Shown piece after piece: positions 48,642-64,000 of a stretch of 64,000 nt of DNA; the stretch's first letter is position 1; each line of letters starts with the position of its first letter. Source of the stretch: a virus (lineage: Duplodnaviria > Heunggongvirae > Uroviricota > Caudoviricetes); IMG/VR virus record IMGVR_UViG_3300002835_000066, positions 1 through 64,000 of that record. One strand, written 5' to 3'. Made by a program: the position numbers and the translations under genes. A model generated the notes under the pieces. It did not search any database. It saw nothing but the letters and a program-made list of their open reading frames with translations, and was not told the origin of the DNA.

Positions 48642-48646
48642 AACTA

Positions 48647-51600
48647 TTATCCGTATGTAGCGTTTAGCGTATACCATTGTGTTGCTGAAACTGAGACAAA
48701 CTCTAGTCTTGCGCCTGCTGGTTGTGCATAAGCAGCGTTAGTTGCAGCAGAGTTGATAGCAGCACCAGAAGGAGGATATACATTCAATGCAGTAGCACTT
48801 GTGTTCATAACAAGGATTCTGGCGCCAGCCGGAACAGTTGGAAGAATAACACCAGTACTTGCACTTACCGTACTTACTACGTTGATCGGTCTAGTTAGTG
48901 TAGTAGCAGTACCCTGTGTCGAGCCTGCTGCTGTAATGCCTGTAGTGACACCATATGATACAAAGCCACCTGATGCTGCAAACTGAATGTTGCCGCCAGC
49001 ATCAACACTAATCATTGGGATACCAGAAACATCGTTAACTGTAAAGATGTTGCCGGTCATGCTATCTGTAATACTGAACAACTGTCCTGCGTTACCTGAC
49101 CAAGCTAATGTACCGCCATTGAGCATTGTGCTGTTGATAGTATTTGCAGCATTAGGTGATACGTAAGCAATATTACTTGCAATGTTTAAGTTTGTGAAGA
49201 AGCTGTTTGCGTTTGCACCAATACCGCCTGTGACAATTAGCGCACCAGTAGTTCTGCTTGTCGCCGCAGTGCTGTTTGTGATACTTACTGCGCCACTTGA
49301 AGTCAAACCAGTGAGTGTACCGACAGACGTAATGTTTGGTTGAGCAGCAGTTGTTACAGTACCGGCTGTGGTTGCACTAGTAGCAGCGCCGCTTAATGCA
49401 CCAACAAACGTTGTAGCAGTAATAGAATTGTTTGATAAGTTAGCAGTGAGACCTGTGCTGGTGAGTTCATTAACATTGCCGGTTGCTGCGCTTGCAAAGA
49501 CAATAAAGTTATTACCTGTACCGGCCGCTACACTTATCGTATCAGTAACACCTGATTGAGCAACGTTTAAGTTTGCTACTTGCGTAGTTGAAGTTACTGT
49601 TAATGGAGCAGTACCAGTAGCAATGTTTGAAATTAGTCTAGTACCAGTAATAGTTCCATTTACACCCAATGATGTTAATGTACCAACGCTTGTGATATTT
49701 GGTTGTGCTGCTGTTGTTACAGTACCAGCAGTACCTGCTGAAGTTGCGAATGTCGCATTTGCTACAGTACCAGTGACATTAGCACCGGCAATAGCACTTA
49801 ATCCACTACCATTACCAGTGAATACACCTGTATTAGCAGTAAACGCTGATGCAGTAACAGTACCACTTACACCTAAACTTGTTAGCGTACCAGTTGAAGT
49901 GATGTTTGGTTGTGCTGCTGTTGTTACAGTACCAGCAGTAGTTGCGCTAGTTGCTGCTCCTGATAGGGCGCCGACAAAAGTTGTAGCAGTAATAGAATTG
50001 TTTGATAAGTTAGCAATAAGACCAGTACTTGTTAGTTCTGTTATGTTTCCGGTTGCTGCGTTTGCAAAGATAAGGAAGTTATTTCCTGTTCCAGCAGCTA
50101 CGCTAATGAAGTCAGCAACGTTTGCATAGTTAACATTCAAGTTAGCTACACGAGTTGTTGAAGTTACTGTCAACGGAGCAGTACCTGTTGCAACATTTGA
50201 TGTTAATGTACTTGCAACAACCGCAGTAGTTGCATTTAAATTACCAACGTTAGCATTACCGGTAACTGCTAATGATGTAAGCGTACCCACACTAGTGATG
50301 TTTGGTTGAGCGGCTGTTGTTACTGTACCTGCTGTTGTGGCACTTGTTGCAGCTCCTGATAGAGCGCCGACGAATGTTGTAGCAGTAATAGAATTGTTTG
50401 ATAAGTTAGCAGTAAGGCCTGTGCTTGTTAGTTCTGTTATATTACCTGTTGCCGCATTTGCAAAGATAAGGAAGTTATTACCTGTTCCAGCCGCTACGCT
50501 AATGAAGTCCGCGACATTTGCATAATTAACATTCAAGTTAGCAACGCGGGTAGTACTTGTTACTGTTAATGGAGCAGTACCAGTTGCAACATTTGAAGTC
50601 AGCGTACTTGCTACTACTGCTCCGGCAGTATTTAGGTTACCTGCACTTGCGTTACCTGTTACAGCTAGTGATGTTAATGTACCCACACTCGTAATATTAG
50701 GCTGTGCTGCTGTTGTTACTGTACCAGCTGTACCTGCACTAGTTGCAAAAGTTGCGTTAGCAACTGTACCAGTTACGTTAGCACCAGTAAGAGCGGTTAG
50801 TCCACTACCATTGCCTGTAAATACGCCGGAGTTAGCAGTGAATGCCGGGGCTGTTATAGTGCCGCTTGAGTTTAGTCCGGTTAGTGTACCGACAGCGGTA
50901 ACCTGTGTCTGACTTGCATTTACACTAAACGTTGAACCAGTTAGTGTTAAACCAGTTCCTGCTTGATAGGTTCCCGCACCTGAGAACTGCTCCCAAACTA
51001 TTGGATCCGTGCCGACAGTAGTAACTTCGTCAATTTGCACCCAACCAGTTGAATTATATACTGTACCGGCGGTGATGAAAGTGAAGTCACCACCTGCGAT
51101 TTCAACAGCAGTATCAAAATCAGTAGCACGAGTCAACACTGTTGCACTTGTTCTTACATAGATACCATTATTTGCTTGAGTTGCTTCGTTCTTAACAAGA
51201 ATACGCATTCCGTCTGATAGTGTGACACCATCAATAGTTGTATATGAACCTGTTGTAGTTAGTGTTGCACCTACACCAGCTGTACCGTTATTATATGTAA
51301 CTGTACCACCTGAAATAGTTGCAAGTGTAGTAGTTGTGGCCGCGTTACAAGAAGGGTGAATATTCAAACCTTGAGCAACATCGTCTACATATTGTTTGGT
51401 TGCTGCATCGGTTGATGCAGTTGGAGTAGCAAGATTGATAATTGTATTGCTAGTCATATCCAAATTACCAGCAATGCTGCTTACGCCTGTGCCTGTTACA
51501 CTAAGTATACCAGTTGTAGTTAAGTTACCTGCTGCAACGTTACCTGTCACTGTCGCTGATGTTAGTGTACCAACTGATGTAATGTTTGGTTGTGCTGCTG

Positions 51601-54600
51601 TTGTTAGTGTGCCGGTGAACAAGTTAGCAGTAATAACATTAGCACCAGAGATGTTACCACCTGTGCCTGATCCTGTTATGATATTACCAGCAGAAAGATT
51701 TCCGGATACGTTAGCAGTACCGGTGATGTTTGCTCCAGTACCGGTAACAACAAGCACATTAGCATTACCAACTGCTGAGATATTGACATTGCCGTTTGCA
51801 GCAGGAATATTTACGTTTGAGTTGCCGTTTGCGTGTGGTCCAAGCAAGTTACCGACTGTTGCATTTCCAGTTACAGCAAGAGAAGTTAATGTACCAACTG
51901 AGGTGATATTTGGCTGCGCCGCAGTTGTTACAGTACCAGCTGTGGTTGCGCTCGTAGCAGCACCACTCAATGCACCAACGAATGTAGTTGCTGTGATAGA
52001 GTTATTAGATAAGTTAGCAGTAAGACCGGTGCTTGTTAGTTCTGATATGTTGCCCGTTGCTGCGTTTGCGAATATGAGGAAGTTATTTCCTGTTCCAGCA
52101 GCTACACTGATAAAATCAGCAATGTTTGCACGAGCAACATACAAGTTAGGAACAACTGTGGTAGATGTTACTACAAACGGAGCAGTACCAGCAGCAACAT
52201 TTGAGATTAGTTGCGGAGCAGTCACGTTCGCAGTTGCAAGAACTTGAGCAGTACCTAAGTTACCTACGTTAGCATTACCATTAGCGTTTAACGTTCCAGC
52301 AACGTTGATTCCAGTACTTGTGATAGTAATCTCGGCGGGCGTGCCTGTTGCAGAAAGAGTAATATTACCGTTCGCAGTAATAGAGATATTACTATTGCCG
52401 TTTTGCACTAGCGGTACGTTAGCTGCGGTAGTAAAGATACCTGTTGCTAACCCTAAGTTACCGACGTTAGCATTGCCGGTCACATTCAATGTTCCAGCAA
52501 CGTTTGCGCCAGTTCCCGTTACTACTACAATATTTGCATTACCTACGGCTGAGATATTAACATTACCATTTGCAGCAGGAATGTTGACATTTGAGTTTCC
52601 ATTTGCGTGTGGTCCAAGCAAGTTACCGACTGTTGCATTTCCGGTTACAGCAAGAGAAGTTAATGTACCAACGCTTGTAATATTTGGCTGCGCCGCAGTT
52701 GTAACTGTCCCAGCAGTAGTTGCACTTGTTGCAGCTCCACTTAGAGCACCGACGAACGTAGTGGCCGTGATGCTTGAGTTACCTAAGTTAGCACTAATGC
52801 CAGTATTAATAACAGCACTTGAGTTGCCATTTGCACTACTTGTACTGAATGTTGGGTATACTGTAGTTGCAGTTGAGGTGTTCTGTAATAATGCTGATGC
52901 ATTTGTCGCAGCAGTAGCACTTGCTACTGTACCGGTTACATTAGCACCTGCAATTGCACTTAGGCCACTACCGTTACCAGTGAATACACCTGTATTAGCA
53001 GTGAATGCAGAAGCAGTTACCGTACCACTGACACCTAATGATGTTAATGTACCAACTGATGTAATGTTAGGTTGCGCTGCCGTTGTTACTGTACCGGCTG
53101 TGGTTGCGCTCGTAGCAGCACCACTTAATGCACCAACGAATGTAGTGGCTGTGATAGAGTTATTTGATAAGTTAGCAATGAGTCCAGTACTTGTTAGCTC
53201 TGTTATGTTACCTGTTGCCGCATTTGCGAATATGAGGAAGTTATTGCCTGTGCCAGCAGCTACGCTAATAAAATCAGCAACGTTTGCATAATTAACGTTC
53301 AAGTTAGCAACACGAGTAGTGCTTGTTACTGTTAGTGGAGCAGTACCGGTTGCGACATTGGACGTTAGAGTACTTGCAACTACAGCACCAGCAGTATTCA
53401 AGTTGCCTGCACTTGCGTTACCCGTAACTGCTAATGATGTTAATGTACCAACTGATGTGATATTTGGTTGTGCTGCTGTTGTTAGTGTGCCACCTAAGGT
53501 AGTTGCTACTACACCAGTCGCGCCTAAGTTACCAACATTAGCGTTTCCAGTTGCGTTTAATGTACCTGCTACGTTAACACCAGTTGCAGTTACAACAACA
53601 ACGTTAGCAGTACCTACAGCACTGATATTAACATTTCCATTTGCTGCTGGAATGTTTACGTTTGAGTTGCCGTTAAGAATTGATGAGCCTGCTGCTACCG
53701 TAATACCAGTTAACTGACTACCATTCCCAATGAAGAACGGAGCAGAAACGTTACCGGCAAATGCTACGTTAGTGTTAGCGGAATAAGCAGTCATTGATAT
53801 GCCACTTACTACACCGGTTGCATTTTGAGTGAATAGACGGAAGTTGTTACTTGCATCGACATCCATGTTCCAAGTAGAGTTTGCTTGACCGGTTATGTTA
53901 TTGACGCCTGCATACCCTAATATTATTTGACCACCTTCAGCGCCAGTTGAACCAACTATAAGGTTGTCATTACCGTATATTCGGGTAGTTGCGTTTAAGT
54001 TACCAACGTTAGCATTTGCTGTTACAGCCAATGATGACAGCGTACCCACTGATGTAATGTTAGGTTGAGCCGCAGTTGTTACTGTACCCGCAGTAGTTGC
54101 AGAACCAGCAGAAGTTGCGAATGTCGCATTTGCAACAGTACCGGTGACATTAGCACCTGCAAGTTGTGATAGGCCTGCACCATTGCCTGTAATCAATCCG
54201 CTGTTTAGTGTGATTGTTCCATTACCAAATACTGCATTAGCTGTAGCATTACCGACAGTTAGACCGGTCAACGTACCGACTGATGTGATATTGGGTTGAG
54301 CAGCAGTTGTAACTGTGCCAGCAGTAGTTGCAGCGCCGGTCAACGCCCCAACAAATGTTGTTGATGTTACACTAGTTAGACCAGTTACAGTTGTTGTAGT
54401 AGTGCCAAGTTCAAGAGTTGTATTACCTAGAATTACGTTTGAGTTTGCTAGTCTTACTTGAGCAAGAGTACCACTTGAGACGTTGCTTGCATTTAGTGTA
54501 GTTAAGTTAGCACCACTACCTGCAAACAATGTAGCACTGACAAGAGCAACACCATTAATGTTTGAGCCAGTACCTGACATTGTGATATCGGCGTTTGCTG

Positions 54601-57600
54601 CTAATGTCAAACCAGTTAATGTACCAACCGATGTAATATTGGGTTGAGCCGCTGTTGTTACAGTGCCGGCTGTTGTAGCAGAACCAGCAGAAGTTGCGAA
54701 TGTCGCATTTGCTACTGTGCCTGACACGTTAGCTCCGGCTACTGCGTTAGCTGTAGTTGCAAAAGCGACTGCACCAGTAACGTTAGCGCCTGCGATTGCA
54801 CTCAGCCCACTGCCATTACCTGTAAAGACGCCAGTGTTTGCAGTGATGTTAACACCAGTGATTGTCCCGTTAACGCCGAGTCCAGTTAATGTACCGACTG
54901 AAGTAATATTACCTTGTGCAGCAGTTGTTACTGTACCCGCAGTACCTGCTGAAGTTGCGAATGTCGCATTTGCTACTGTACCAGTAACATTAGCTCCTGC
55001 AATTGCACTTAGACCTGAGCCATTACCAGTAAAGACTCCTGTGTTAGCAGTGATATTTGCAGCAGTAATGTTGCCACTTACACCAAGTGACGTAAGCGTA
55101 CCAACACTTGTGATATTGGGTTGTGCAGCAGTAGTTACAGTGCCTGCCGTAGTAGCAGCGCCAGTCAATGCACCAACGAATGTAGTAGACGTAACGCTTG
55201 ATAAGCCAGTTACAGTTGTTGTAGTAGTGCCAAGTGCAAGAGTTGTGTTACCTAATATTACATTTGAGTTTGCTAGTCTTGCTTGTGCTAATGTACCACT
55301 TGAAACGTTACTTGCATTTAGTGCAGTAAGTGCCGAACCATTACCTGTAAATACACCGGTATTTGCTGTGAATGCTGGGGCAGTGACAGTGCCGCTTGAG
55401 TCTAAACCAGTTAGTGTACCTACACTAGTGATTGTGGGCTGTGCTACGTTTACGCTAAACTGTGAGCCAGTTAATGTTAAACCAGTACCAGCAGTATATG
55501 TACCCGCACCAGAGAACTGTACCCAAACAACTGCGGATGTACCGACAGTTGTTACTGGATCTGGCATCACCCAACCCGTATTATCGTATAGCGTTCCGGC
55601 AGTGACGAATGTGAAGTCACCTCCTGCCATTTCAGTAGGAGTATCAAAATCAGTTGAACGAGTTAATACAGTTGTGCTTGTGCGATCATATATACCATTA
55701 TGCGCTGTGTTTGCTTCATTCTTAACAAGGATGCGCATTCCATTTGATAGGGTAACACCGTCAATAGTGGTATATGTTCCAGTTGTAGTTAAGGTTGCGC
55801 CGACACCGGCAGTACCATTATTATATGTTACAGTACCACCTGAAATAGTTGCCAATGTAGTTTGTGTGGCTGCGTTACAACTATCGTGTGTATGTAGACC
55901 TTGAGCAACATCGTCAACATATTGTTTAGTAGCAGCATCAGTTGAATTAACCGGAGCTGCAAGATTGATAATATTGTTGCTGGTCATGTCTAGGTTGCCA
56001 GCAATGCTGCTTACGCCAGTACCAGTTACACTCAATACACCAGTTGTTGTCAAGTTACCAGCAGCGACATTGCCTGTTACTGTAGCACTTGTTAGTGTGC
56101 CTACTGAGGTGATATTAGGTTGTGCAGCGGTGTATACTGTACCCGCTACTAATGCGTTAGCTACTTGACCACTAACATTAGCTCCAGCCACTGCGTTAGC
56201 TGTTGTAGCGAATGCAACTGCTCCACTAACATTAGCTCCGGCTACTGCATTGGCTGTTGTAGCGAATGCTACTGCACCAGTAACGTTAGCCCCAACAATT
56301 GAACTTAATCCATTACCATTGCCAGTGAATACACCAGAGTTAGCAGTGATGTTAACACCAGTAATTGTTCCGTTAACACCAAGTCCGGTTAATGTACCGA
56401 CACTAGTTATGTTACCTTGGGCAGCAGTTGTTACAGTACCCGCTGTTCCTGCACTTGTTGCAAATGTCGCATTTGCTACAGTACCGGTTACATTAGCACC
56501 TGCAATTGCACTTAACCCACTACCGTTACCAGTGAATACGCCTGTATTTGCTGTGATGTTTGCAGCAGTAACGTTGCCGCTGACACCTAAACTTGTTAGT
56601 GTACCGACTGATGTAATGTTGGGCTGGGCTGCTGTAGTGACAGTACCAGCAGTTGTAGCACTCGTAGCGGCGCCACTTAGCGCGCCAACGAATGTAGTTG
56701 CGGTAATAGAGTTGTTTGATAGGTTAGCAGTGAGGCCTGTACTTGTTAGTTCGGTGATATTCCCAGTTGCTGCGTTGGCAAAGATGAGGAAATTATTCCC
56801 AGTTCCAGCGGCCACACTGATAAAATCAGCAACGTTTGCGTGATTGACATTTAAATTAGCTACACGAGTAGTTGAAGTTACCGTTAGTGGCGCAGTACCT
56901 GTTGTGACATTTGAAGTCAGTGTACTTGCTACTACTGCACCAACAGTATTTAAATTACCTGCACTTGCATTGCCTGTGACCGCAAGTGAGCTTAATGTAC
57001 CAACCGAAGTGATATTTGGCTGAGCCGCAGTTGTTACTGTACCAGCAGAGGTTGCAAATGTCGCATTTGCTACAGTACCGGTGACATTAGCACCCGCGAG
57101 TTGTGATAGGCCTGCGCCGTTGCCAGTAATCAATCCAGAGTTGAGAGTGATTGTTCCGTTGCCGAATACCGCATTAGCAGTTGCATTACCAATAGTTAGT
57201 CCAGTTAGCGTACCGACTGAAGTGATATTAGGTTGTGCTGCCGTTGTGACAGTACCTGCTGTAGTTGCTGCGCCAGTCAATGCCCCGACAAATGTAGTTG
57301 ATGTAACACTTGATAAGCCAGTTATTGTTGTTGTAGTAGTGCCAAGTGCAAGAGTTGTATTACCTAGAATTACGTTTGAGTTTGCTAGTCTTGCTTGAGC
57401 AAGAGTACCACTTGATACATTGCTTGCATTTAGTGCGGTCAATGCTGAACCATTACCGGTGAATACACCTGTATTTGCAGTGATGTTTGCAGCAGTAATG
57501 TTACCACTTACACCTAAACTAGTTAGATTGCCTACGCTAGTGATATTCGGCTGTGCTGCGGTTGTTACCGTTCCGGAAGTTGTTGCACTTGATACAGTAC

Positions 57601-58222
57601 CGGTTACGTTAGCCCCAGTAATTGAACTTAGTGAACTACCATTGCCGCTTACATTAGTGAAGACCCCTTGAGTCGCGCCGATATTACCGACATTAGCGTT
57701 GCCGGTAGCATTTAATGTACCGGCAACATTAACACCAGTACCAGTTACAACAAGAACGTTTGCATTACCAGCAACACTGAGATTGATGTTACCGCCCGCT
57801 GCTGGAATATTTAAATTTGAGTTACCGTTTGAAACGTTTGATACTGAAGTAATAATTCCAGTTAGCTGACTACCATTACCAATAAAGAAGTTAGCAGCTA
57901 AGTTGCCATCACTATTGCGAACAGCAACAGTATTTGCTGTATTTGCAGTTGCAGTGTTGTATCCATCCAATAAATCAGCATTAAGATTTGCGACTACTGT
58001 AGTAGAAGATACGGTTAATGGAGCAGTGCCAGTTGCTACGTTTGAAATTAGTCTTACGCCACTGATATTGCCTGTTGCGGTAATATTACCGGTGACATCT
58101 AAGTTCCCCGGTGGTACTGTACTAGTTCTTATCCAAGCAGTCTGTGCGCTATTGTAGGTATAGGTTATCCCGTTTACAACAGTTGTTTCACCATTAGTTG
58201 GGTTTGTTGGGAATAATGCCAT
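48647..58222 (-). CDS. giant repetitive tail-fibre protein (3191 aa)
   Basis: Uninterrupted 9.6-kb ORF made of dozens of near-identical repeats (ATTFVGALSGAATSATTAGTVTTAAQPNITSVGTLTSLAVTGN...). It contains two copies of the conserved module of about 190 aa, which carries the motif ...NLA.P..STDAATKQYVDD... and a knob-like LVKNEA..NGIY...TR..DFD region. Confidence 0.7.
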   Translation of the reverse strand: MALFPTNPTNGETTVVNGITYTYNSAQTAWIRTSTVPPGNLDVTGNITATGNISGVRLISNVATGTAPLTVSSTTVVANLNADLLDGYNTATANTANTVAVRNSDGNLAANFFIGNGSQLTGIITSVSNVSNGNSNLNIPAAGGNINLSVAGNANVLVVTGTGVNVAGTLNATGNANVGNIGATQGVFTNVSGNGSSLSSITGANVTGTVSSATTSGTVTTAAQPNITSVGNLTSLGVSGNITAANITANTGVFTGNGSALTALNASNVSSGTLAQARLANSNVILGNTTLALGTTTTTITGLSSVTSTTFVGALTGAATTAGTVTTAAQPNITSVGTLTGLTIGNATANAVFGNGTITLNSGLITGNGAGLSQLAGANVTGTVANATFATSAGTVTTAAQPNITSVGTLSSLAVTGNASAGNLNTVGAVVASTLTSNVTTGTAPLTVTSTTRVANLNVNHANVADFISVAAGTGNNFLIFANAATGNITELTSTGLTANLSNNSITATTFVGALSGAATSATTAGTVTTAAQPNITSVGTLTSLGVSGNVTAANITANTGVFTGNGSGLSAIAGANVTGTVANATFATSAGTAGTVTTAAQGNITSVGTLTGLGVNGTITGVNITANSGVFTGNGNGLSSIVGANVTGAVAFATTANAVAGANVSGAVAFATTANAVAGANVSGQVANALVAGTVYTAAQPNITSVGTLTSATVTGNVAAGNLTTTGVLSVTGTGVSSIAGNLDMTSNNIINLAAPVNSTDAATKQYVDDVAQGLHTHDSCNAATQTTLATISGGTVTYNNGTAGVGATLTTTGTYTTIDGVTLSNGMRILVKNEANTAHNGIYDRTSTTVLTRSTDFDTPTEMAGGDFTFVTAGTLYDNTGWVMPDPVTTVGTSAVVWVQFSGAGTYTAGTGLTLTGSQFSVNVAQPTITSVGTLTGLDSSGTVTAPAFTANTGVFTGNGSALTALNASNVSSGTLAQARLANSNVILGNTTLALGTTTTTVTGLSSVTSTTFVGALTGAATTAGTVTTAAQPNITSVGTLTSLGVSGNITAANITANTGVFTGNGSGLSAIAGANVTGTVANATFATSAGTAGTVTTAAQGNITSVGTLTGLGVNGTITGVNITANTGVFTGNGSGLSAIAGANVTGAVAFATTANAVAGANVSGTVANATFATSAGSATTAGTVTTAAQPNITSVGTLTGLTLAANADITMSGTGSNINGVALVSATLFAGSGANLTTLNASNVSSGTLAQVRLANSNVILGNTTLELGTTTTTVTGLTSVTSTTFVGALTGAATTAGTVTTAAQPNITSVGTLTGLTVGNATANAVFGNGTITLNSGLITGNGAGLSQLAGANVTGTVANATFATSAGSATTAGTVTTAAQPNITSVGTLSSLAVTANANVGNLNATTRIYGNDNLIVGSTGAEGGQIILGYAGVNNITGQANSTWNMDVDASNNFRLFTQNATGVVSGISMTAYSANTNVAFAGNVSAPFFIGNGSQLTGITVAAGSSILNGNSNVNIPAANGNVNISAVGTANVVVVTATGVNVAGTLNATGNANVGNLGATGVVATTLGGTLTTAAQPNITSVGTLTSLAVTGNASAGNLNTAGAVVASTLTSNVATGTAPLTVTSTTRVANLNVNYANVADFISVAAGTGNNFLIFANAATGNITELTSTGLIANLSNNSITATTFVGALSGAATSATTAGTVTTAAQPNITSVGTLTSLGVSGTVTASAFTANTGVFTGNGSGLSAIAGANVTGTVASATAATNASALLQNTSTATTVYPTFSTSSANGNSSAVINTGISANLGNSSITATTFVGALSGAATSATTAGTVTTAAQPNITSVGTLTSLAVTGNATVGNLLGPHANGNSNVNIPAANGNVNISAVGNANIVVVTGTGANVAGTLNVTGNANVGNLGLATGIFTTAANVPLVQNGNSNISITANGNITLSATGTPAEITITSTGINVAGTLNANGNANVGNLGTAQVLATANVTAPQLISNVAAGTAPFVVTSTTVVPNLYVARANIADFISVAAGTGNNFLIFANAATGNISELTSTGLTANLSNNSITATTFVGALSGAATSATTAGTVTTAAQPNITSVGTLTSLAVTGNATVGNLLGPHANGNSNVNIPAANGNVNISAVGNANVLVVTGTGANITGTANVSGNLSAGNIITGSGTGGNISGANVITANLFTGTLTTAAQPNITSVGTLTSATVTGNVAAGNLTTTGILSVTGTGVSSIAGNLDMTSNTIINLATPTASTDAATKQYVDDVAQGLNIHPSCNAATTTTLATISGGTVTYNNGTAGVGATLTTTGSYTTIDGVTLSDGMRILVKNEATQANNGIYVRTSATVLTRATDFDTAVEIAGGDFTFITAGTVYNSTGWVQIDEVTTVGTDPIVWEQFSGAGTYQAGTGLTLTGSTFSVNASQTQVTAVGTLTGLNSSGTITAPAFTANSGVFTGNGSGLTALTGANVTGTVANATFATSAGTAGTVTTAAQPNITSVGTLTSLAVTGNASAGNLNTAGAVVASTLTSNVATGTAPLTVTSTTRVANLNVNYANVADFISVAAGTGNNFLIFANAATGNITELTSTGLTANLSNNSITATTFVGALSGAATSATTAGTVTTAAQPNITSVGTLTSLAVTGNANVGNLNATTAVVASTLTSNVATGTAPLTVTSTTRVANLNVNYANVADFISVAAGTGNNFLIFANAATGNITELTSTGLIANLSNNSITATTFVGALSGAATSATTAGTVTTAAQPNITSTGTLTSLGVSGTVTASAFTANTGVFTGNGSGLSAIAGANVTGTVANATFATSAGTAGTVTTAAQPNITSVGTLTSLGVNGTITGTRLISNIATGTAPLTVTSTTQVANLNVAQSGVTDTISVAAGTGNNFIVFASAATGNVNELTSTGLTANLSNNSITATTFVGALSGAATSATTAGTVTTAAQPNITSVGTLTGLTSSGAVSITNSTAATSRTTGALIVTGGIGANANSFFTNLNIASNIAYVSPNAANTINSTMLNGGTLAWSGNAGQLFSITDSMTGNIFTVNDVSGIPMISVDAGGNIQFAASGGFVSYGVTTGITAAGSTQGTATTLTRPINVVSTVSASTGVILPTVPAGARILVMNTSATALNVYPPSGAAINSAATNAAYAQPAGARLEFVSVSATQWYTLNATYG

Positions 58223-58273
58223 TATCTATTTCCTATACTCATCTTACTATTTATAATCATATGAATCATGCTT

Positions 58274-61200
58274 TTAGAACCTTCCAACTGCTACTTCAAT
58301 TACGCCAAAGTCTCCGTTGAAGTTTTCTAGTGCTTTACCTATAATAGTTCCTGCTCGTGCTTCATTATTTGCAGTAGCGTGTCCGTTACTAGCTGATACC
58401 ATTAAGTCACCCTTTTCAATTGGGCCAATAACTTTACACGGCACACGACCCTGTAGTGCGATTTCTGCAACATATTCTGCTTCTAGCATTGCATTCATTG
58501 AGTATGCTGGGTTAGTTGTGACAACGCCTGCAACTTTAGTTGAATCAAATGCATTAGCTAGTGTGACTTCTTGTTCGCCACCAAATAATAGAACTGTGCC
58601 TGGCTCATAGGTATCATCTGCTGTATACTTTTCTGCAAGGTCAGCGTAAGTAGCTTGCCATCTTGAACCAGCAGTGAGGGTCCAGTTACCAGTGACAGTA
58701 CCTGCGGTTACGTTTGATCCTGCTGTAATAGCAGTAGTCTGTAGTGTTGTGGGATTGAAAGTTCCATTGTATGTTAATGCGCCAGCACCGGCGCGACCTA
58801 ACTTAGTTGTACTATCCGCATTACCAAAGACAATATAACCGTTTGCGGCATTTTGTTGTCCTCTAATACTTATAGTATCAGCAGCGTTAACATCACCAAT
58901 CCATGCATCATCGCCAATTCTAAAGTTTGTTCCGTTGCCGTTATTTCCTGATAGGAAAATATCGGCAGTTACGTTACCTGTTACTGCTAGTGATGTTAGT
59001 GTACCAACTGAAGTTATATTAGGTTGTGCTGCTGTTGTTACCGTGCCGGCGGTAGTTGCACTCGTAGCCGCCCCGGTTAATGCCCCAACAAAAGTAGTTG
59101 ATGTGACGCTTGACAAGCCAGCTACAGTCGTAGTTGTACCACCTAATGTTAAAGTAGTGTTGCCGAATGTTATTGTACTGTTTGCAAGTCTTGCTTGAGC
59201 TAACGTACCACTTGCAATACTAGTTGCGTTTATTCCAGTTATTGATGACCCATTACCTGAGAAGGAGTTGGCACTTACTAAGTTAACCCCAGAAATCTGC
59301 GATCCAGCGCCTGACATTGTAATTTGTGCGTTTGCTACAAAAGTCAATCCACTAAACGAAGTACTTACTGATGTGATATTTGGCTGTGCTGCTGTTGTTA
59401 CAGTACCGGCTGTTGTAGCAGAACCAGCAGAAGTTGCGAATGTCGCATTTGCTACTGTGCCCGACACATTAGCACCTGCTACTGCATTTGCTGTTGTAGC
59501 GAATGATACTGCGCCAGTAACATTTGCGCCCGCAATCGCACTCAACCCACTACCGTTACCAGTGAATATACCGGTGTTAGCAGTAAATGCCGGTGCAGTT
59601 ATCGTACCACTTGAGTTTAGTCCGGTTAATGTACCGACAGCCGTAACCTGAGTCTGAGACGCATTAACACTAAACTGAGAACCAGTTAATGTTAGACCAG
59701 TACCAGCAGTATACGTGCCGGCGCCACTGAACTGTACCCAGACTACATTAGTTGTACCGACGGTAGTAACTGGGTCAGTCATTACCCAGCCTGTATTATC
59801 ATACAAGGTACCAGCAGTAACGAATGTAAAGTCACCACCAGCCATTTCTGCGGGTGTGTCAAAATCAGTTGAGCGAGTTAAAACAGTAGTGCTGGTGCGA
59901 TCATAGATACCATTATGTGCAGCATTTGCTTCGTTCTTAACAAGAATACGCATACCATTTGACAACGTAACACCATCAATTGTAGTGAATGTTCCGGTGG
60001 TAGTTAAGTTTGCTCCGACTCCACTTGCGCCGTTGTTGTAGGTTACTGTGCCACCTGAGATAGATGCCAAAGTAGTTTGAGTAGCTGCATTACAGCTATC
60101 GTGAGTGTGAAGTCCTTGAGCAACATCATCTACGTACTGTTTGGTAGCAGCATCAGTTGAATTAGTAGGCGTAGCAAGATTGATAATTGTGTTGCTGGTC
60201 ATATCTAGATTACCTGCAATACTGCTTACACCAGTACCAGTTACGCTGAGTACACCAGTTGTTGTTAGATTGCCTGCCGCAACATTACCGGTAACAGTAG
60301 CACTTGTTAATGTACCAACACTCGTGATATTTGGCTGCGCCGCAGTTGTTACGGTACCTGCTGTAGTTGCCGCGCCACTTAGTGCACCTGTAAATGTTGT
60401 TGCACTTACGTTACCTGCACTGATGTTTCCAGTTACAGCCAATGAAGTTAGTGTACCAACTGATGTAATGTTAGGTTGAGCCGCAGTTGTTACTGTGGCT
60501 GCTGAACCAGTTGCGTTACCTGTTAATGCACCAGTAAATGTTGTTGCACTTACGTTACCTGCACTGACGTTACCTGTTACAGCAAGTGAGGTTAGTGTAC
60601 CTGTACTTGTAATATTGGGTTGTGCCGCAGTTGTCAATGAACCTGCTACCGTAGTGAACACACCCGCGGCTGCTCCGATGTTGCCAACGTTAGCGTTGCC
60701 AGTTACACTTAACGCACCACCGGTTGTTAAGTTACCACCAGATACGTTGCCGGTCGCAGCAACGGTGCCGCTTGTAGTTAAGTTACCATTAGCATCCAAT
60801 GCCATACGAGTTGTAAGAGTTACATTTGCGCCTGCTGTGCCAGTTGGTGCGTTAGTCCATTGATGGGCTCCACCTTGCATTGAATAGTCAGCGGCTGCGC
60901 CGTTTTGAATATATTTGTTGTTAGTACCATCAAAGAAGTAGTTTTGGGAAAGGTACGTGTTAATGTCACCGCTAAAGTTCCAAAACGATGCACTTCCTAT
61001 TTGCACTACGTTTGCTGATGCCCACGCATTAGCGGTAGTGTTGACTCCTACAACAGGACCCGTTTTGACATTTCCAGTAACACTCAATGCGCCGCCGGTA
61101 GTTAGATTTCCACCTGTAACATTGCCTGTAGCAGTTAAACTACTTAATGTACCAACTGATGTAATATTAGGCTGTGCTGCTGTTGTTACAGTACCGGCTG

Positions 61201-61933
61201 TCGTGGCACTTGTAGCTGCGCCAGATAGTGCGCCGACAAATGTAGTTGCAATCAATGCACCGTTTGCTAGATTAGCACTGAATGCAGTATTTGAATTGAG
61301 TTGATAGTTGCCGTTAGCAGTAGATGAGATAAACGCTGGAAAATAAGTACCGGTTGATTGCACGTTATTCAAAACTGCGGCTGCATTTGAACCAGCTATA
61401 TTAGGTAGGGGAAGACTACTAATATCAACCCACTGAGAAGAAGTTCCATCATCTAGATACTCAAAGAGAATACCATTAAATGTGTTATACCATTGATCAC
61501 CGTTCTGCGGGCTAGCAGGAGCAGTATTTGATTGAGAAATTATTCCGGTTAAGCCATATGAGCCGCGAAAAACAGCATTACTTGTAAAGGTCGCTATGTT
61601 TGCAACGCCGTTGACACTTACTACAACATTGCCATTTGCAGCAGGAATGCTGACATTAGATGTGCCATTTGCGATTGCAGTGGCGCTAGAAATCGATTGC
61701 CAGCTTAGGTTTCCTGCGCCATCTGTTTGTAGATATTGTCCGGAACTACCACCTGTGAGCTTTACATTACTGTTTGAACCTAAGGCAACATTAGCTGCGG
61801 CAGTGAGATTTGCATTTCCTGTGACTGCAAGATTAGTTACGGTTGCGTTACCGGTCGTGGCATCCAATGTAATGTTGCCAACCGTAATACCGTTGATTAC
61901 GTTAAAATATTTTAGTGCCACAGTTCCATACAT
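58274..61933 (-). CDS. repetitive tail-fibre protein (1219 aa) with a distinct C-terminal domain
   Basis: Same repeat units, plus one copy of the TDAATKQYVDD module. The unique C-terminus (...YADLAEKYTADDTYEPGTVLLFGG...GRVPCKVIGPIEKGDLMVSASNGHA...GKALENFNGDFGVIEVAVGRF) may be a trimerisation or chaperone-like domain. Confidence 0.65.
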   Translation of the reverse strand: MYGTVALKYFNVINGITVGNITLDATTGNATVTNLAVTGNANLTAAANVALGSNSNVKLTGGSSGQYLQTDGAGNLSWQSISSATAIANGTSNVSIPAANGNVVVSVNGVANIATFTSNAVFRGSYGLTGIISQSNTAPASPQNGDQWYNTFNGILFEYLDDGTSSQWVDISSLPLPNIAGSNAAAVLNNVQSTGTYFPAFISSTANGNYQLNSNTAFSANLANGALIATTFVGALSGAATSATTAGTVTTAAQPNITSVGTLSSLTATGNVTGGNLTTGGALSVTGNVKTGPVVGVNTTANAWASANVVQIGSASFWNFSGDINTYLSQNYFFDGTNNKYIQNGAAADYSMQGGAHQWTNAPTGTAGANVTLTTRMALDANGNLTTSGTVAATGNVSGGNLTTGGALSVTGNANVGNIGAAAGVFTTVAGSLTTAAQPNITSTGTLTSLAVTGNVSAGNVSATTFTGALTGNATGSAATVTTAAQPNITSVGTLTSLAVTGNISAGNVSATTFTGALSGAATTAGTVTTAAQPNITSVGTLTSATVTGNVAAGNLTTTGVLSVTGTGVSSIAGNLDMTSNTIINLATPTNSTDAATKQYVDDVAQGLHTHDSCNAATQTTLASISGGTVTYNNGASGVGANLTTTGTFTTIDGVTLSNGMRILVKNEANAAHNGIYDRTSTTVLTRSTDFDTPAEMAGGDFTFVTAGTLYDNTGWVMTDPVTTVGTTNVVWVQFSGAGTYTAGTGLTLTGSQFSVNASQTQVTAVGTLTGLNSSGTITAPAFTANTGIFTGNGSGLSAIAGANVTGAVSFATTANAVAGANVSGTVANATFATSAGSATTAGTVTTAAQPNITSVSTSFSGLTFVANAQITMSGAGSQISGVNLVSANSFSGNGSSITGINATSIASGTLAQARLANSTITFGNTTLTLGGTTTTVAGLSSVTSTTFVGALTGAATSATTAGTVTTAAQPNITSVGTLTSLAVTGNVTADIFLSGNNGNGTNFRIGDDAWIGDVNAADTISIRGQQNAANGYIVFGNADSTTKLGRAGAGALTYNGTFNPTTLQTTAITAGSNVTAGTVTGNWTLTAGSRWQATYADLAEKYTADDTYEPGTVLLFGGEQEVTLANAFDSTKVAGVVTTNPAYSMNAMLEAEYVAEIALQGRVPCKVIGPIEKGDLMVSASNGHATANNEARAGTIIGKALENFNGDFGVIEVAVGRF

Positions 61934-62061: not shown

Positions 62062-62093
62062 CTTGTTGTGTTTTAGTATGTTAACTTACAATA

Positions 62094-64000
62094 TTACACT
62101 AAGTTATATTGTGTAGTCCACACAGTTGAGTTGCTGCTTGCTGGCGTTACTTGTAGTTTGAGGTTGCCAGAATCTACAACTACTTGTAGACTGCTTCCAG
62201 TTACTGTGCCGATATTTACTGTTGCGAAAATAGTATAATCAACATTAGCACCGTCAGTAACAGCCACTACCTTAGCAACACTATGCTTGCCGCCGGCAGA
62301 ATCAATACCCTTAACTAGATATTCAATGCCGGTTGTACCTGTTACTGCAAATGAAGCAATAGTCTGATTTGCGGTAGTTGCAGTTGTAGTTACCGTACCG
62401 GATGTTACTGTTGTACTACCAATGATAACATTGCCAGTAACATTAGCAGTTGTTAAGTTTGCTGATGTTGCAGAGACATTGCCGCTGCTGATATTACCAG
62501 TTACAGCAAGTGAAGTTAGTGTACCAACTGAAGTAATGTTTGGTTGAGCATTAGTGTAAACTGTACCGGCAACAAGTGCGTTACCTACTTGACCTGAAAC
62601 ATTAGCACCAGTGATTGCAGTTAATGCAGAACCATTACCACTTACGTTAGTGAATGCACCAGTAGTTCCGCTTACATTACCGGCAGCTACGTTACCAGTT
62701 ACATCAAGTGAAGTTAGTGTACCAACACTTGTGATATTTGGCTGAGCAGCAGTTGTTAATGTACCTGCAAAGAAGTTAGCTGTAGCAAGATTGCCTAAGT
62801 TAGCATTGCCGCCACTGATATTGCCTGTTACTGACAAGTTAGCAAGAGTACCAACACTTGTCAAGCTTGAGTTGACAATAGTTGCTGCAAGTGTGGTGCC
62901 TGTCAAATTAGCAGCATTTGCAGTAATTGCTACGTTTGCAGCGGCAGTTAACTGACCTTGTGCATTTACAGTGAATGACGCAACTGCATCACCGCTTCCA
63001 TAGCTACTAGCAGTGACAGCAGTATTTGTAATACTGAAGGTGTCACCGGTTAGCGTTAAGCCAGTGCCAGCCTTATATGTACCAGCACCTGAGAACTGTA
63101 CCCATGCAATTGGATCAGTACCAACAGTATTAACTTCGTCAATTTGCACCCAACCAGTTGAGTTATATTCTGTACCAGCAGTAACAAATGTAAAGTCACC
63201 GCCTTGAATCTCAGCAGCAGTATCAAAGTCAGCAGCACGAGTCAATACAGTAGCACTTGTTCTTACATAGATACCGTTGTTTGCTTGAGCCGCTTCGTTC
63301 TTGACGAGGATTCTCATACCATTTGATAGTGTAACACCATCAAGAGTTGTCAGCCCAACTCCTAAGGTTAGTGTTGCACCAACACCAGCAGTACCGTTGT
63401 CATAAGTTACACTGCCGCCTGTGATAGATGCAAGAGTAGCAGGAGTTGCAGCATCGCAACTTGCATGAATATGCAAACCTTGAGCAACGTCATCAACATA
63501 TTGCTTGGTTGCTGCGTCGGTTGATGCTGTTGGAGTAGCAACGTTTGAGACTCTTGCGCCCCAAACATCAACTGTTCCTGTACCAGTTGGCTTCAAGAAG
63601 ACATTGCTATTTGCGCCAGTAGCTGAAATGCTAACACTTGTAGTTCTGCCGACGATTAAATCAGTTACAAGATTTGCACTTGTTTGAATATTACCGGTAA
63701 CAGTAAGGTCAGTTAATGTTCCAACACTTGTTACGTTTGGTTGAGCAGCAGTCGTGAGTGTACCAGTTAGTGTAGCGCCTGAAACGTCTCCGGTAGCACT
63801 TAGGTTACCAGTAGTTGTATTGCCGGTTACAGCAAGTGAAGTTAGTGTACCAACTGAAGTAATGTTTGGCTGAGCATTAGTGTAAACTGTACCAGCTACA
63901 AGTGCGTTGCCTACTTGACCGGTTACATTAGCACCAGCGATTGCAGTTAGAGCAGCACCGTTACCAATGAAGTTAGTAGCAGATACGTTACCAACTACAG
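62094..64000 (-). CDS. repetitive tail-fibre protein, 5'-partial. The N-terminus lies beyond the window end.
   Basis: The track ORF 62094..63596 begins at the first Met of a frame that stays open to position 64000. Hand-translating upstream gives the same repeat units (...NFIGNGAALTAIAGANVTGQVGNALVAGTVYTNAQPNITSVGTLTSLAVTGN...). It contains one copy of the TDAATKQYVDD module and a unique C-terminal 130 aa. Confidence 0.65.
   Translation of the reverse strand, partial: VVGNVSATNFIGNGAALTAIAGANVTGQVGNALVAGTVYTNAQPNITSVGTLTSLAVTGNTTTGNLSATGDVSGATLTGTLTTAAQPNVTSVGTLTDLTVTGNIQTSANLVTDLIVGRTTSVSISATGANSNVFLKPTGTGTVDVWGARVSNVATPTASTDAATKQYVDDVAQGLHIHASCDAATPATLASITGGSVTYDNGTAGVGATLTLGVGLTTLDGVTLSNGMRILVKNEAAQANNGIYVRTSATVLTRAADFDTAAEIQGGDFTFVTAGTEYNSTGWVQIDEVNTVGTDPIAWVQFSGAGTYKAGTGLTLTGDTFSITNTAVTASSYGSGDAVASFTVNAQGQLTAAANVAITANAANLTGTTLAATIVNSSLTSVGTLANLSVTGNISGGNANLGNLATANFFAGTLTTAAQPNITSVGTLTSLDVTGNVAAGNVSGTTGAFTNVSGNGSALTAITGANVSGQVGNALVAGTVYTNAQPNITSVGTLTSLAVTGNISSGNVSATSANLTTANVTGNVIIGSTTVTSGTVTTTATTANQTIASFAVTGTTGIEYLVKGIDSAGGKHSVAKVVAVTDGANVDYTIFATVNIGTVTGSSLQVVVDSGNLKLQVTPASSNSTVWTTQYNLV

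What the first reader, a model, noticed from the sequence alone, without database searches (positions are those of the whole stretch)
48647..64000. Giant 3191-aa repetitive fibre protein and two further fibre genes built from the same DNA tandem repeats, sharing a module of about 190 aa
A 9.6-kb uninterrupted ORF is composed of dozens of near-identical units of 40-130 aa (...TAGTVTTAAQPNITSVGTLTSLAVTGN...). A module of about 190 aa begins ...NL(A/D)MTSN.IINLA.P..STDAATKQYVDDVAQGLH.H and continues with a knob-like LVKNEA..NGIY.RTS.TVLTR..DFD...E..GGDFTFVTAG...N.TGWV segment. This module occurs four times across the three consecutive genes. The nucleotide identity between repeats is high enough that the reverse strand yields long Ala/Val-rich pseudo-ORFs. 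Such architecture promotes recombinational length variation and domain shuffling of the distal fibre. The TKQYVDD-type motif is a widespread fibre trimerisation or joint motif. Each of the three genes ends with a different C-terminal domain, and those domains are probably the receptor-binding tips. This locus is the fibre counterpart to the LamG cassette upstream. It also carries a high risk of mis-assembly.
Basis: seen in the sequence. Interest (0 to 1): 0.6.

Follow-up and report, generated by a model that had tools for sequence, protein, structure and literature searches.

The report
Giant modular phage tail-fibre gene cluster
Three neighbouring genes of an uncultured freshwater T4-like phage, one of them 3191 codons long, encode long tail fibres built from ancient repeats that match as protein but have drifted apart as DNA, so the locus is stable and correctly assembled, and it is a large member of a known kind.

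Summary
The three genes exist, all on the minus strand. Gene A is 48647-58222 (3191 aa) and gene B is 58274-61933 (1219 aa). Gene C is 62094->64000, cut by the window end; it is 956 aa in the parent contig.

The protein repeats and the four copies of the ~187-aa module are confirmed. The DNA claim is wrong. Repeat copies are about 96% identical as protein but only about 80% as DNA (range 66-87%). Synonymous sites are near saturation, and the longest exact DNA repeat is 56 bp. Six independent metagenome assemblies give the same sequence with no length change. So this is neither a mis-assembly risk nor a fast-recombining array. The long antisense ORFs come from codon composition.

The fibre reading holds. 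The module is homologous to a stretch of the Legionella phage LME-1 tail fibre, and the contig carries a T4 Gp23-type capsid gene.

The C-termini differ, but they are not all tips:
- **Gene A's** tip also caps a 3003-aa collagen-like fibre and ~201-aa proteins in related phages.

Verdict: a new member of a known kind, of moderate interest.

The parts
48647..58222 (-). Gene A: 3191-aa giant fibre protein. It has a unique N-terminus, 21 TVTTAAQPNITSVGTLT-bounded cassettes, two globular modules and a unique tip.
   Evidence: ORF list and translation. Cassette map. Identical in independent assemblies L001 and L004.
58274..61933 (-). Gene B: 1219-aa fibre protein with one module, four junction motifs and a C-terminal auto-chaperone domain.
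   Evidence: The exact protein is found on 13 or more contigs.
62094..64000 (-). Gene C, the 3' part only (634 of 956 codons). Its start lies beyond the window end.
   Evidence: The frame is open to the window end. The full gene is L001:6970-9840, 956 aa.
55448..56008 (-). Module copy 1 (gene A aa 739-925).
   Evidence: AF2 model: mean pLDDT 87, core 95-98. Homologous to the LME-1 tail fibre.
50918..51478 (-). Module copy 2 (gene A aa 2249-2435).
   Evidence: Its 171-aa core is 81.9% aa / 76.8% nt identical to copy 1.
59663..60223 (-). Module copy 3 (gene B aa 571-757).
   Evidence: Its core is 93.0% aa / 79.9% nt identical to copy 1. PDB 9efk hit, E 4.9e-10.
63027..63578 (-). Module copy 4 (gene C; aa 141-324 of the window frame).
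   Evidence: PDB 9efk hit, E 1.5e-13.
48650..49186 (-). Gene A C-terminal tip (aa 3013-3191). It has two sub-domains; the last ~97 aa are the most widely shared.
   Evidence: 165 homologues, including ~201-aa stand-alone proteins and collagen fusions. The same tip caps ORFs of 204-3003 aa in IMG/VR loci. No Pfam or PDB sequence match.
58277..58654 (-). Gene B C-terminal domain (aa 1094-1219): a phi29 gp12-like (Peptidase_G2-type) intramolecular chaperone. The predicted cleavage site is A1097|D1098.
58655..58972 (-). Gene B unique domain just before the chaperone (aa 988-1093). It is the candidate mature tip of fibre B.
   Evidence: Unique at DNA and protein level. 57% identical to an ORF of Synechococcus phage DSL-LC03. 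The tip role is inferred.
62097..62411 (-). Gene C unique C-terminal domain (last ~105 aa).
   Evidence: Unique segment. No Pfam hit. No tblastn match in 50,697 phage records.
62037..62064 (-). Intrinsic-terminator-like hairpin (12-bp stem plus T run), 30 nt after the gene C stop codon.
58248..58255 (-). TATAAATA, the T4 late-promoter consensus, 26 nt upstream of the gene A start codon.
   Evidence: It is one of only 5 matches in the window and the motif is not enriched overall, so only its position is suggestive.

Best explanation
This is the fibre locus of an uncultured freshwater myovirus with a T4 Gp23-type capsid. Its nearest capsid relatives are the jumbo phages PA5oct and Vibrio 2.275.O. 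Genes C, B and A encode three long fibres, most probably homotrimeric tail fibres.

Each fibre is a chain of protein cassettes joined by an invariant 17-residue junction (TVTTAAQPNITSVGTLT). The chain is interrupted by one or two copies of a ~187-aa globular module, which would form nodules or hinges on the shaft, and each fibre ends in its own C-terminal domain.

B and C share an N-terminal adaptor motif (FN..(G/N)G(F/I)(S/T)VG ... GG..GQ.L.TDGAGNL) with a neighbouring 571-aa tail-fibre protein. This suggests a common docking site. A has a different N-terminus.

Fibre B probably folds from its C-terminus with the help of a phi29 gp12-like auto-chaperone. That domain would then cleave itself off at A1097|D1098, so the mature tip of B is the domain upstream of it. 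Fibre A ends in a portable two-part tip that other phages put on collagen-like or cassette stalks, or encode as a ~201-aa protein. It is the best candidate for host binding.

The repeats are old duplications or shuffled cassettes kept alike by purifying selection on the protein. Their DNA has diverged almost to synonymous saturation, which leaves the locus genetically stable.

Shown: gene structure, repeat statistics, assembly reproducibility, homologies and fold match. Inferred: trimer state, tail rather than head location, cleavage, and receptor binding.
For: GENE STRUCTURE AND CONTEXT
- ORFs and cassette map.
- The contig carries Gp23 (PF07068), which matches phrog_138 major head protein.
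- The capsid protein is 65-67% identical to those of PA5oct and Vibrio 2.275.O.
- A 571-aa tail-fibre protein (phrog_17885, 1.7e-73) lies just upstream.
- LamG virion-protein genes lie downstream.
- The window holds 28 tRNA genes.

FIBRE IDENTITY
- The module matches LME-1 orf22 (PDB 9efk_AE) at E 1.5e-13 to 4.9e-10. That chain (18 chains in the entry) corresponds to the six trimeric tail fibres the paper describes (PMC12407071).
- By tblastn the module is found in 68 phage records, many annotated as tail fibre.
- The 132-aa cassette occurs in 1158 representative protein clusters, in proteins of up to 4183 aa.

OLD REPEATS
- 95.6% aa against 79.6% nt identity; 49% same codon against 38% expected; dS about 0.5 to saturated.
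- Serine switches between AGY and TCN codons inside the invariant junction.
- The longest exact repeat is 56 bp.
- Orthologous DNA in related phages is just as diverged, 67-82%.

STABILITY
- Six assemblies show 1-4 differences over 7.9-15.7 kb and no repeat-number change.

GENE B CHAPERONE
- Close homologues pass the PF11962 gathering score (30.9 and 27.5 bits against 25).
- ATYA-D-L-A-E aligns with gp12 TWS-D-F-A-E (D692, E695), and D and E are invariant.

GENE A TIP MOBILITY
-. Fusions to collagen triple-helix repeats (PF01391 hits; L014) fit a trimeric fibre.
Against: - No virion proteomics or imaging exists for this phage, so neither tail location nor trimer state is shown.
- PHROG 2647, which matches the module, is labelled 'head decoration', and cyanophage PSS2 annotates its homologue as 'capsid decoration protein'.
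- Gene B itself does not reach any Pfam threshold for PF11962.
- A sequence profile of its family does not find gp12 in the PDB at E <= 10.
- The residue before the putative scissile bond is Ala, not the Ser of gp12. Cleavage is therefore an inference.
- The tips of A and C were not modelled.
- The repeat pairs used for dN/dS were chosen for high protein identity. This biases dN downward, though not dS.
Confidence: 0.75

Rival explanations
1. One reading: a recombination-prone array of near-identical DNA tandem repeats. Repeat number would change quickly, giving contingency-type fibre length variation, and the assembly would be unreliable.
For: - The protein repeats look near-identical.
- Many database hits to the tip come from short contigs. 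Breaks at repeats are one possible cause, but most contigs in these collections are short anyway.
- L002 has a 1-nt insertion and three clustered SNPs inside a repeat.
Against: - DNA identity between copies is 66-87%.
- TRF finds only five small arrays.
- The longest exact repeat is 56 bp.
- Synonymous sites are near saturation.
- Six independent assemblies are collinear at 99.97-99.99% with no repeat-number difference.
Confidence: 0.04
2. The proteins are head fibres, capsid decoration fibres or whisker-like appendages rather than tail fibres.
For: - The module hits phrog_2647 'head decoration' (1.6e-22).
- Cyanophage PSS2 records annotate the homologous ORF as 'capsid decoration protein'.
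- The major capsid gene lies about 8 kb upstream.
Against: - The only experimentally located homologue of the module is a tail fibre, LME-1.
- Most annotated homologues are tail fibres.
- The adjacent 571-aa gene matches tail-fibre and baseplate-wedge PHROGs.
- In a related contig the A-type tip gene lies next to gp15-like and other tail genes.
- In decoration proteins this fold is the capsid-binding base. In B it sits at the extreme C-terminus with the gp12 cleavage motif.
Confidence: 0.12
3. The synonymous divergence of the repeats is an adaptation. Selection would favour codon-scrambled copies because they protect a very long repetitive gene from deletion by the phage's own recombination system.
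For: - Protein identity of about 96% with near-random codon choice.
- No repeat pair exceeds about 91% DNA identity.
- The locus is invariant across samples.
Against: - The same-codon fraction (0.49) is still above the random expectation (0.38). Nothing goes beyond ordinary saturation.
- dN/dS of 0.01-0.09 is what strong purifying selection gives at dS >= 1.
- Orthologous cassettes in other phage lineages are as diverged as the paralogues, so old age alone explains the pattern.
Confidence: 0.12
4. Gene B's C-terminal domain is kept in the mature fibre as its distal receptor-binding or trimerising knob, rather than acting as a chaperone that is cleaved off.
For: - Gene B itself has no significant PF11962 hit.
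- Ala replaces the Ser that precedes the scissile bond in gp12.
- The domain is about 125 aa, against 163 aa in gp12, and matches only profile positions 24-100 of 228.
- The same fold serves as a permanent trimeric module in decoration proteins.
Against: - D and E of the D-x-x-E motif are invariant in all 36 aligned homologues.
- The domain is unusually conserved (57-81% identity to B) behind very different stalks, including collagen. That pattern suits an assembly device better than a host-specific tip.
Confidence: 0.25

Closest known systems
Bacillus phage phi29 gp12 pre-neck appendage, C-terminal auto-chaperone (MEROPS/Pfam Peptidase_G2, PF11962; PDB 3GQH)
   Same: - The domain sits at the same C-terminal position.
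- The D-x-A-E motif lies at the same place as gp12 D692/E695.
- Close homologues pass the Pfam gathering score.
   Different: - Sequence identity is only 19%.
- The domain is shorter and covers about a third of the Pfam profile.
- Ala, not Ser, precedes the putative scissile bond.
- It follows a thin cassette fibre, not a beta-helix tailspike.
- The phage is a myovirus, not a podovirus.
- Cleavage is not shown here.
Legionella phage LME-1 tail fibre orf22 (PDB 9EFK; PMC12407071)
   Same: Residues ~188-400 of orf22 are homologous to the module, including the P....D..(T/N)K.Y.D motif and the LVKN/NGIY/TRA.DFD/GD core (E 1.5e-13 to 4.9e-10). The paper describes six trimeric tail fibres.
   Different: - LME-1 is a T7-like podophage with a 658-aa fibre carrying one module next to its adaptor domain.
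- Here the module lies deep inside fibres of 956-3191 aa and occurs twice in one chain.
- The paper states that the distal regions of the LME-1 fibres gave weaker density that was not modelled. Whether the matched stretch falls in that part was not checked. Neither fold search returned 9EFK or any other solved match for the module.
T4 long tail fibre proteins gp34 and gp37, and the multi-fibre adsorption apparatus of jumbo myoviruses (PA5oct, RaK2-type)
   Same: - Very long fibre proteins made of repeated structural motifs with globular nodules.
- Several fibre genes in a row.
- A Gp23-type capsid.
- B's C-terminal domain has homologues in PA5oct-group virion proteins.
   Different: - No detectable sequence similarity to T4 gp34-37 (no such Pfam or PHROG hits).
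- The cassette set, junction motif, module and tips belong to families without Pfam models.
- At 3191 aa, gene A is about 2.5 times gp34 (1289 aa; figure from my own knowledge).
Collagen-like giant phage fibres
   Same: The tip of gene A caps a 3003-aa Gly-X-Y protein in a related 106-kb viral contig (L014). That protein also shares gene C's N-terminal FNS.GGFSVG motif. Smaller collagen fusions also exist (P0095, P0098, P0270).
   Different: The stalks of genes A, B and C contain no Gly-X-Y repeats. They use T/A/G/N/V-rich cassettes instead.
Endosialidase-type intramolecular chaperone (Peptidase_S74, PF13884)
   Same: Same logic: a C-terminal domain that assists trimer folding of a fibre and is then removed. 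One module homologue, P0182, carries PF13884.
   Different: None of the three genes matches PF13884. Gene B uses the G2-type fold instead.

Membership tests
Peptidase_G2-type intramolecular chaperone (phi29 gp12 C-terminal domain, PF11962), for gene B aa 1094-1219 | Sequence match to PF11962 at or above the gathering score (25 bits) | tested here: inconclusive
   Gene B alone gives no hit at E <= 1. Of 36 aligned homologues (57-81% identical to B), 19 hit PF11962 at E <= 0.01. P0277 scores 30.9 bits and P0311 27.5 bits against a cut-off of 25, over profile positions 24-100 of 228 only.
Peptidase_G2-type intramolecular chaperone (phi29 gp12 C-terminal domain, PF11962), for gene B aa 1094-1219 | Same fold as the solved gp12 C-terminal fragment | tested here: met
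   [not shown]
Peptidase_G2-type intramolecular chaperone (phi29 gp12 C-terminal domain, PF11962), for gene B aa 1094-1219 | Conserved Asp and Glu (D-x-x-E) at the start of the domain, where gp12 is cut (S691|D692...E695) | tested here: met
   B has A1097-D1098-L-A-E1101. D and E are invariant in 36 homologues. A profile alignment places them on gp12 D692 and E695 (positions). The residue before D is Ala, not Ser.
Peptidase_G2-type intramolecular chaperone (phi29 gp12 C-terminal domain, PF11962), for gene B aa 1094-1219 | Autocatalytic removal of the domain after trimer assembly | not testable with these tools
   This needs protein chemistry or virion mass spectrometry.
Phage tail fibre (structural role) | Homology to a protein located in a tail by experiment | tested here: met
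   The module matches the LME-1 tail fibre orf22, PDB 9efk, at E 1.5e-13 to 4.9e-10. Only the module region is covered, not the whole proteins.
Phage tail fibre (structural role) | Gene neighbourhood of tail, baseplate or other fibre genes in a tailed-phage genome | tested here: met
   An adjacent 571-aa protein hits tail-fibre and baseplate-wedge PHROGs. LamG virion proteins lie downstream. Gp23 is on the same contig. In L007 the A-type tip gene lies beside a T4 gp15-like gene.
Phage tail fibre (structural role) | Homotrimeric fibrous assembly present in the virion | not testable with these tools
   Indirect support only: the tip and chaperone domains are fused to collagen triple-helix repeats in relatives, and the gp12 domain is trimeric (my own knowledge).
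   TRF finds five small arrays at 81-94% matches. Dispersed repeats are 66-87% identical. The longest exact repeat is 56 bp.
   Six assemblies from six samples are collinear. They differ only by 1-4 point changes and one 1-nt insertion. Consensus assemblies could hide rare variants.
T4-like (Gp23-capsid) myovirus, for the source genome | Gp23-type major capsid protein | tested here: met
   PF07068 on the 398-aa gene of L001. phrog_138 major head protein at 4.5e-98. 65-67% identity to PA5oct and Vibrio 2.275.O capsid proteins.
Peptidase_S74 intramolecular chaperone | Match to PF13884 at the C-terminus | tested here: not met
   No PF13884 hit for A, B or C, whether scanned whole or as separate C-termini.

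The most novel reading that the evidence does not exclude
A single 3191-residue chain forms one exceptionally long fibre, perhaps around 200 nm if it scales like T4 gp34 and gp37 (my own rough estimate). Its two internal modules would have a fold with no solved counterpart and would act as built-in knees, so that one gene replaces the multi-protein jointed fibre of T4. The codon-scrambled state of its repeats would be actively maintained because it makes such a gene heritable in a recombination-proficient phage.
Probability: 0.12. Interest if true: 0.6.

Novelty: new member of a known kind. Interest (0 to 1): 0.38.

Why it matters
- **Repeat-rich genes.** Looking repetitive as protein does not mean being unstable or mis-assembled as DNA. 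Here a 9.6-kb repeat-rich gene is reproducibly assembled, and its repeats are old and held by purifying selection.
- **Fibre annotation in metagenomes.** The locus maps several unmodelled building blocks that recur in over a thousand protein clusters: the junction motif, the cassettes, a ~187-aa module with a confident but unmatched fold, and two portable tips.
- **Receptor-binding inference.** At least one 'C-terminal tip' is more probably a phi29-type auto-chaperone. This changes which segment should be treated as the receptor-binding part in host-range inference or engineering.
- **Stalk and tip evolve separately.** The same tip sits on a collagen-like 3003-aa stalk in a related phage.

Tried and rejected
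- **Megablast of 40000-64000 against 50,697 phage records:** no match. No close cultured relative exists.
- **Pfam on whole proteins and on six separate sub-domains:** no credible family for any fibre part. The only hits were spurious low-complexity matches such as Serine_rich, DUF7346 and ribosomal fragments, all below cut-off.
- **PDB sequence and profile searches:**
  - B's C-terminus by phmmer: nothing.
  - A-tip profile: only a chance 50-residue match to LpdA.
  - B-chaperone profile: only a weak match to 2a1v.
- **Gapped BLASTP self-comparison** ran alignments through the low-complexity sequence and gave meaningless 30-55% identities. I replaced it with an ungapped diagonal scan.
- **TATAAATA late-promoter motif:** not enriched in the window (5 found, 5.9 expected). 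Only the copy in front of gene A is noted.
- **The junction motif as a DNA recombination hotspot:** rejected, because its codons are at random expectation.
- **Two 503-aa radical-SAM genes** (window 10696-12207 and L001:2235-3746) looked like a possible duplication. They are unrelated in sequence.
- **Weak hits to trimeric autotransporter adhesin fragments** (2yny, 2yo2; E 0.007-0.1) and to plant LRR kinases were treated as compositional.
- **The search for homologous proteins** listed only proteins of about 380 aa or less and never the giant protein itself. I took protein lengths from IMG/VR loci and from the representative search instead.
- **Literature search** on synonymous divergence of fibre repeats found nothing relevant. 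The phi29 virion paper does not mention gp12 cleavage, so that point rests on my own knowledge.

Full report
**1. What is at these coordinates**

All genes of the finding are on the minus strand.
- Gene A is 48647..58222 (3191 aa, ATG start).
- Gene B is 58274..61933 (1219 aa).
- Gene C ends at 62094, and its frame stays open to the last base of the window.

The exact gene B protein is on record in public assemblies. A 122.6-kb ENA contig (L001) and five JGI contigs carry the locus. In L001 gene C is 956 aa (L001:6970-9840).

Gene C is preceded there by genes of 208 and 112 aa and by a 571-aa protein. The 571-aa protein matches tail-fibre and baseplate-wedge PHROGs (phrog_17885, 1.7e-73). Further upstream lies a Gp23-type major capsid gene (PF07068; phrog_138, 4.5e-98). 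That capsid protein is 65-67% identical to those of the jumbo phages PA5oct and Vibrio 2.275.O.

Downstream of gene A lie five LamG-domain genes, then ribonucleotide reductase genes. The first 15 kb of the window hold 28 tRNA genes.

The source is therefore a large, uncultured T4-like myovirus. It has no close relative among 50,697 deposited phage genomes.

**2. The repeats: real as protein, not as DNA**

Gene A is 19.7% Thr, 15.5% Ala, 12.6% Gly, 11.1% Asn and 9.6% Val.

The 17-residue motif TVTTAAQPNITSVGTLT occurs 21 times in A, 4 times in B and 3 times in full-length C. It cuts the proteins into cassettes of 69-333 aa. The recurring types include:
- a ~69-71-aa cassette ('VFTGNGSGLSAIAGANVTG');
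- a 132-aa cassette ('SNVATGTAPLTVTSTTRVANLNV...NNFLIFANAATGN');
- a 'LNASNVSSGTLAQARLANSNV' cassette;
- an 'NGNSNVNIPAANGNVNISAVG' cassette.

72.6% of gene A lies in ungapped repeats that are roughly 88% or more identical as protein.

The DNA tells a different story.
- Self-blastn of 48647-64000 finds 185 repeat pairs, all direct and all inside the locus, at only 66-87% identity.
- Tandem Repeats Finder reports five small arrays.
- The longest exact repeat is 56 bp, and only a handful exceed 35 bp.
- Over 57 ungapped repeat pairs, protein identity averages 95.6% and DNA identity 79.6%.
- dS runs from about 0.5 to saturation, and dN/dS is 0.01-0.09.
- At positions where the residue is identical, the codon is the same in 49% of cases. 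Codon usage alone predicts 38%.
- Inside the invariant junction motif most positions sit at that random expectation. Serine alternates between AGY and TCN codons, and leucine between CTN and TTR.

One caveat applies. The pairs were chosen for high protein identity, which biases dN downward. It does not affect dS or the unbiased blastn figures.

The repeats are thus old copies held together by selection on the protein. They are not recent DNA duplications and they are not homogenised by gene conversion.

**3. Assembly and population stability**

Six assemblies from six different samples were compared with the window: ENA ERZ27272032 and JGI 3300042566, 3300042893, 3300042898, 3300044609 and 3300001266. 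Over 7.9-15.7 kb they are 99.97-99.99% identical, with no repeat-number difference.

The differences are two recurrent SNPs in gene C and, in L002 only, a 1-nt insertion at 55569 plus three clustered SNPs at 50021-50054. The insertion splits gene A.

With exact repeats of 56 bp or less, short reads can resolve the locus. The mis-assembly concern and the idea of rapid length variation are not supported. Consensus assemblies could still hide rare variants.

**4. The antisense ORFs**

The + strand does carry ORFs of up to 413 aa rich in Val, Ala, Pro and Leu. All lie in one antisense frame, which has 35 stops against 232 and 363 in the other two. Shuffling the order of gene A's codons gives a longest antisense open stretch of 306 +/- 89 aa (maximum 915), against 418 observed. 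The ORFs are a by-product of codon composition, not of repeat identity.

**5. The module**

Four copies are present: A aa 739-925, A aa 2249-2435, B aa 571-757, and C aa 141-324 in the window frame. They fall into two subtypes, A1 with B and A2 with C. Their 171-aa cores are 74-93% identical as protein and 67-80% as DNA.

The module is the one part with an experimentally anchored relative. It matches residues ~188-400 of orf22 in PDB 9EFK (E 1.5e-13 to 4.9e-10). The entry holds 18 chains of orf22, which fits the hexamer of trimeric tail fibres described for Legionella phage LME-1 (PMC12407071).

By tblastn the module occurs in 68 phage records, many annotated as tail fibre. These include Pelagibacter, Methylophilales, Synechococcus and Roseobacter phages. 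The closest is Limnohabitans phage DC31 at 62.6%. A second, weaker PDB hit covers just the '...ITDLANPTNSQDAATKAYVD' motif of a 'tail fiber gp9'.

PHROG 2647, which also matches it, is labelled 'head decoration'. I keep a head-fibre reading as a rival at about 0.12.

**6. The C-termini**

They are indeed three different domains, but they are not equivalent.

*Gene B.* The last ~125 aa (ATYADLAEKY...GVIEVAVGRF) belong to a very large and well conserved family, with 1142 hits. In it D1098 and E1101 are invariant.
- Nineteen of 36 aligned homologues hit Pfam PF11962 (Peptidase_G2, 'IMC autoproteolytic cleavage domain'). Two of the five members scanned individually exceed the gathering score. B itself does not hit.
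- The gp12 sequence reads ...TWS691-D692-F-A-E695-YFE. A profile of B's family aligns ATYA-D-L-A-E onto it.

From my own knowledge (Xiang et al. 2009, Mol Cell), this gp12 domain acts as an auto-chaperone for trimer assembly and is cleaved at S691|D692. I could not confirm this in a paper held here.

*Gene A.* The last ~180-220 aa have 165 homologues. They include:
- ~201-aa stand-alone proteins that sit beside LamG and tail genes in other phage contigs (L007);
- fusions to collagen repeats (P0095, P0098);
- in IMG/VR, ORFs of 204 to 3003 aa carrying the same tip.

L010 (1447 aa) is a shorter fibre of the same cassette type with one module. L014 is a 3003-aa Gly-X-Y collagen-like protein with this tip and with gene C's N-terminal motif.

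A portable end-domain on interchangeable trimeric stalks fits a distal host-binding tip. No fold or ligand evidence was obtained, and there is no Pfam or PDB match. Among deposited phages only fragments match.

*Gene C.* The last ~105 aa have no Pfam hit and no match in the phage collection. Their function is untested.

**7. N-termini and expression signals**

B, C, the 571-aa neighbour, L010 and L014 share an N-terminal '...GG..GQ.LQTDG.GNL.W' element. A 'FNS(I/L)GGFS(V/A)G' start is also shared by C, the 571-aa protein and L014, with a variant in B. This suggests a common docking module, which is an inference.

Gene A starts differently (MALFPTNPTNGETTVVNGITYTY...W). A related element occurs inside B ('PASPQNGDQWYNTFNGILFEY...QW', within B's unique N-terminal part). 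Its attachment may therefore differ.

A 12-bp-stem terminator follows gene C (62064-62037). A TATAAATA motif lies 26 nt before the gene A start. The motif is not enriched in the window, so I treat it only as a hint.

**8. How common this is**

The 132-aa cassette finds 1158 representative clusters at E <= 1e-3, and 117 at E <= 1e-30. They include proteins of 4183, 3313, 3082, 2941 and 2895 aa, with up to 30 matched stretches. Giant fibres of this cassette type are thus recurrent in metagenomes. Gene A is among the largest but is not unique.

Orthologous stretches in L010, L011 and L018 are 67-82% identical to gene A as DNA. That is as diverged as the paralogous cassettes within gene A. It fits cassette duplication or shuffling that predates these phage lineages, and it argues against any need for special 'scrambling' selection.

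**9. Verdict**

The locus is a fibre locus and is modular. It is not a recombination-prone or mis-assembly-prone array, and at least one 'tip' is more probably a chaperone.

It is a new, large member of a known kind, namely modular phage tail fibres with a gp12-type auto-chaperone. Three points go beyond the ordinary:
- repeats conserved as protein while synonymous sites are near saturation;
- a confidently predicted module fold with no solved counterpart;
- a tip shared with a collagen-like giant fibre.

Noticed in passing
window 697-15272, minus strand: There are 28 tRNA genes in about 15 kb, including Thr x3, Ala x2, Val x2, Asn and Leu x4. Most of the residues that dominate the fibre genes are covered (Thr, Ala, Asn, Val, Ser, Leu), but there is no tRNA-Gly, although Gly makes up 12.6% of gene A. 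A possible link to translating the late fibre genes was not tested.
   Followed up: no
window 42374-48677, minus strand; also L007:3387-9979: Five consecutive LamG (PF13385) genes follow gene A, one of them also carrying a Gly_rich_2 domain. The same order is seen in another phage contig: a giant ORF, then several LamG genes, then an A-type tip gene, then gp15-like tail genes. The block appears to be conserved.
   Followed up: partly
L014:1538-10549 (IMGVR_UViG_3300042892_000474): This is a 3003-aa collagen-like (Gly-X-Y) ORF interrupted by a few globular inserts. It carries gene C's N-terminal motif and gene A's C-terminal tip (77% identity).
   Followed up: partly
window 55569 and 50021-50054 (compared with L002): Assembly L002 (JGI 3300042566) has a 1-nt insertion inside module 1, which splits gene A into ORFs of 922 and 1951+ aa. 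It also has three SNPs clustered within 34 bp of a 132-aa cassette. This could be a sequencing or consensus error, a real pseudogene variant, or a short conversion tract. It is unresolved.
   Followed up: partly
L001:4212-5927 (beyond the window end, upstream of gene C): A 571-aa protein has the same N-terminal FNSIGGFS motif as gene C. Its C-terminal part matches tail-fibre and baseplate-wedge PHROGs (phrog_17885, 1.7e-73). The fibre locus therefore extends past coordinate 64000.
   Followed up: partly
window 40001-44000: GC content rises to 0.47 with strongly negative GC skew, against about 0.40 elsewhere. The region covers the Gly-rich/LamG genes 39781-43966.
   Followed up: no
window 58655-58972 (gene B aa 988-1093): The unique domain just before B's chaperone is 57% identical to an unannotated ORF of Synechococcus phage DSL-LC03. 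The chaperone part instead matches jumbo phages (PA5oct group, Atu_ph07, Phosso) and Campylobacter T4-like phages. The two parts travel separately.
   Followed up: no
gene A aa 927-1025 and gene B aa 758-844: There are weak sequence hits (E 0.007-0.1) to crystallised fragments of a 'putative inner membrane protein' fused to GCN4 (PDB 2yny, 2yo2). I take these to be trimeric autotransporter adhesin stalk fragments, from my own knowledge. The hits may be compositional, or may hint at a similar stalk motif.
   Followed up: no
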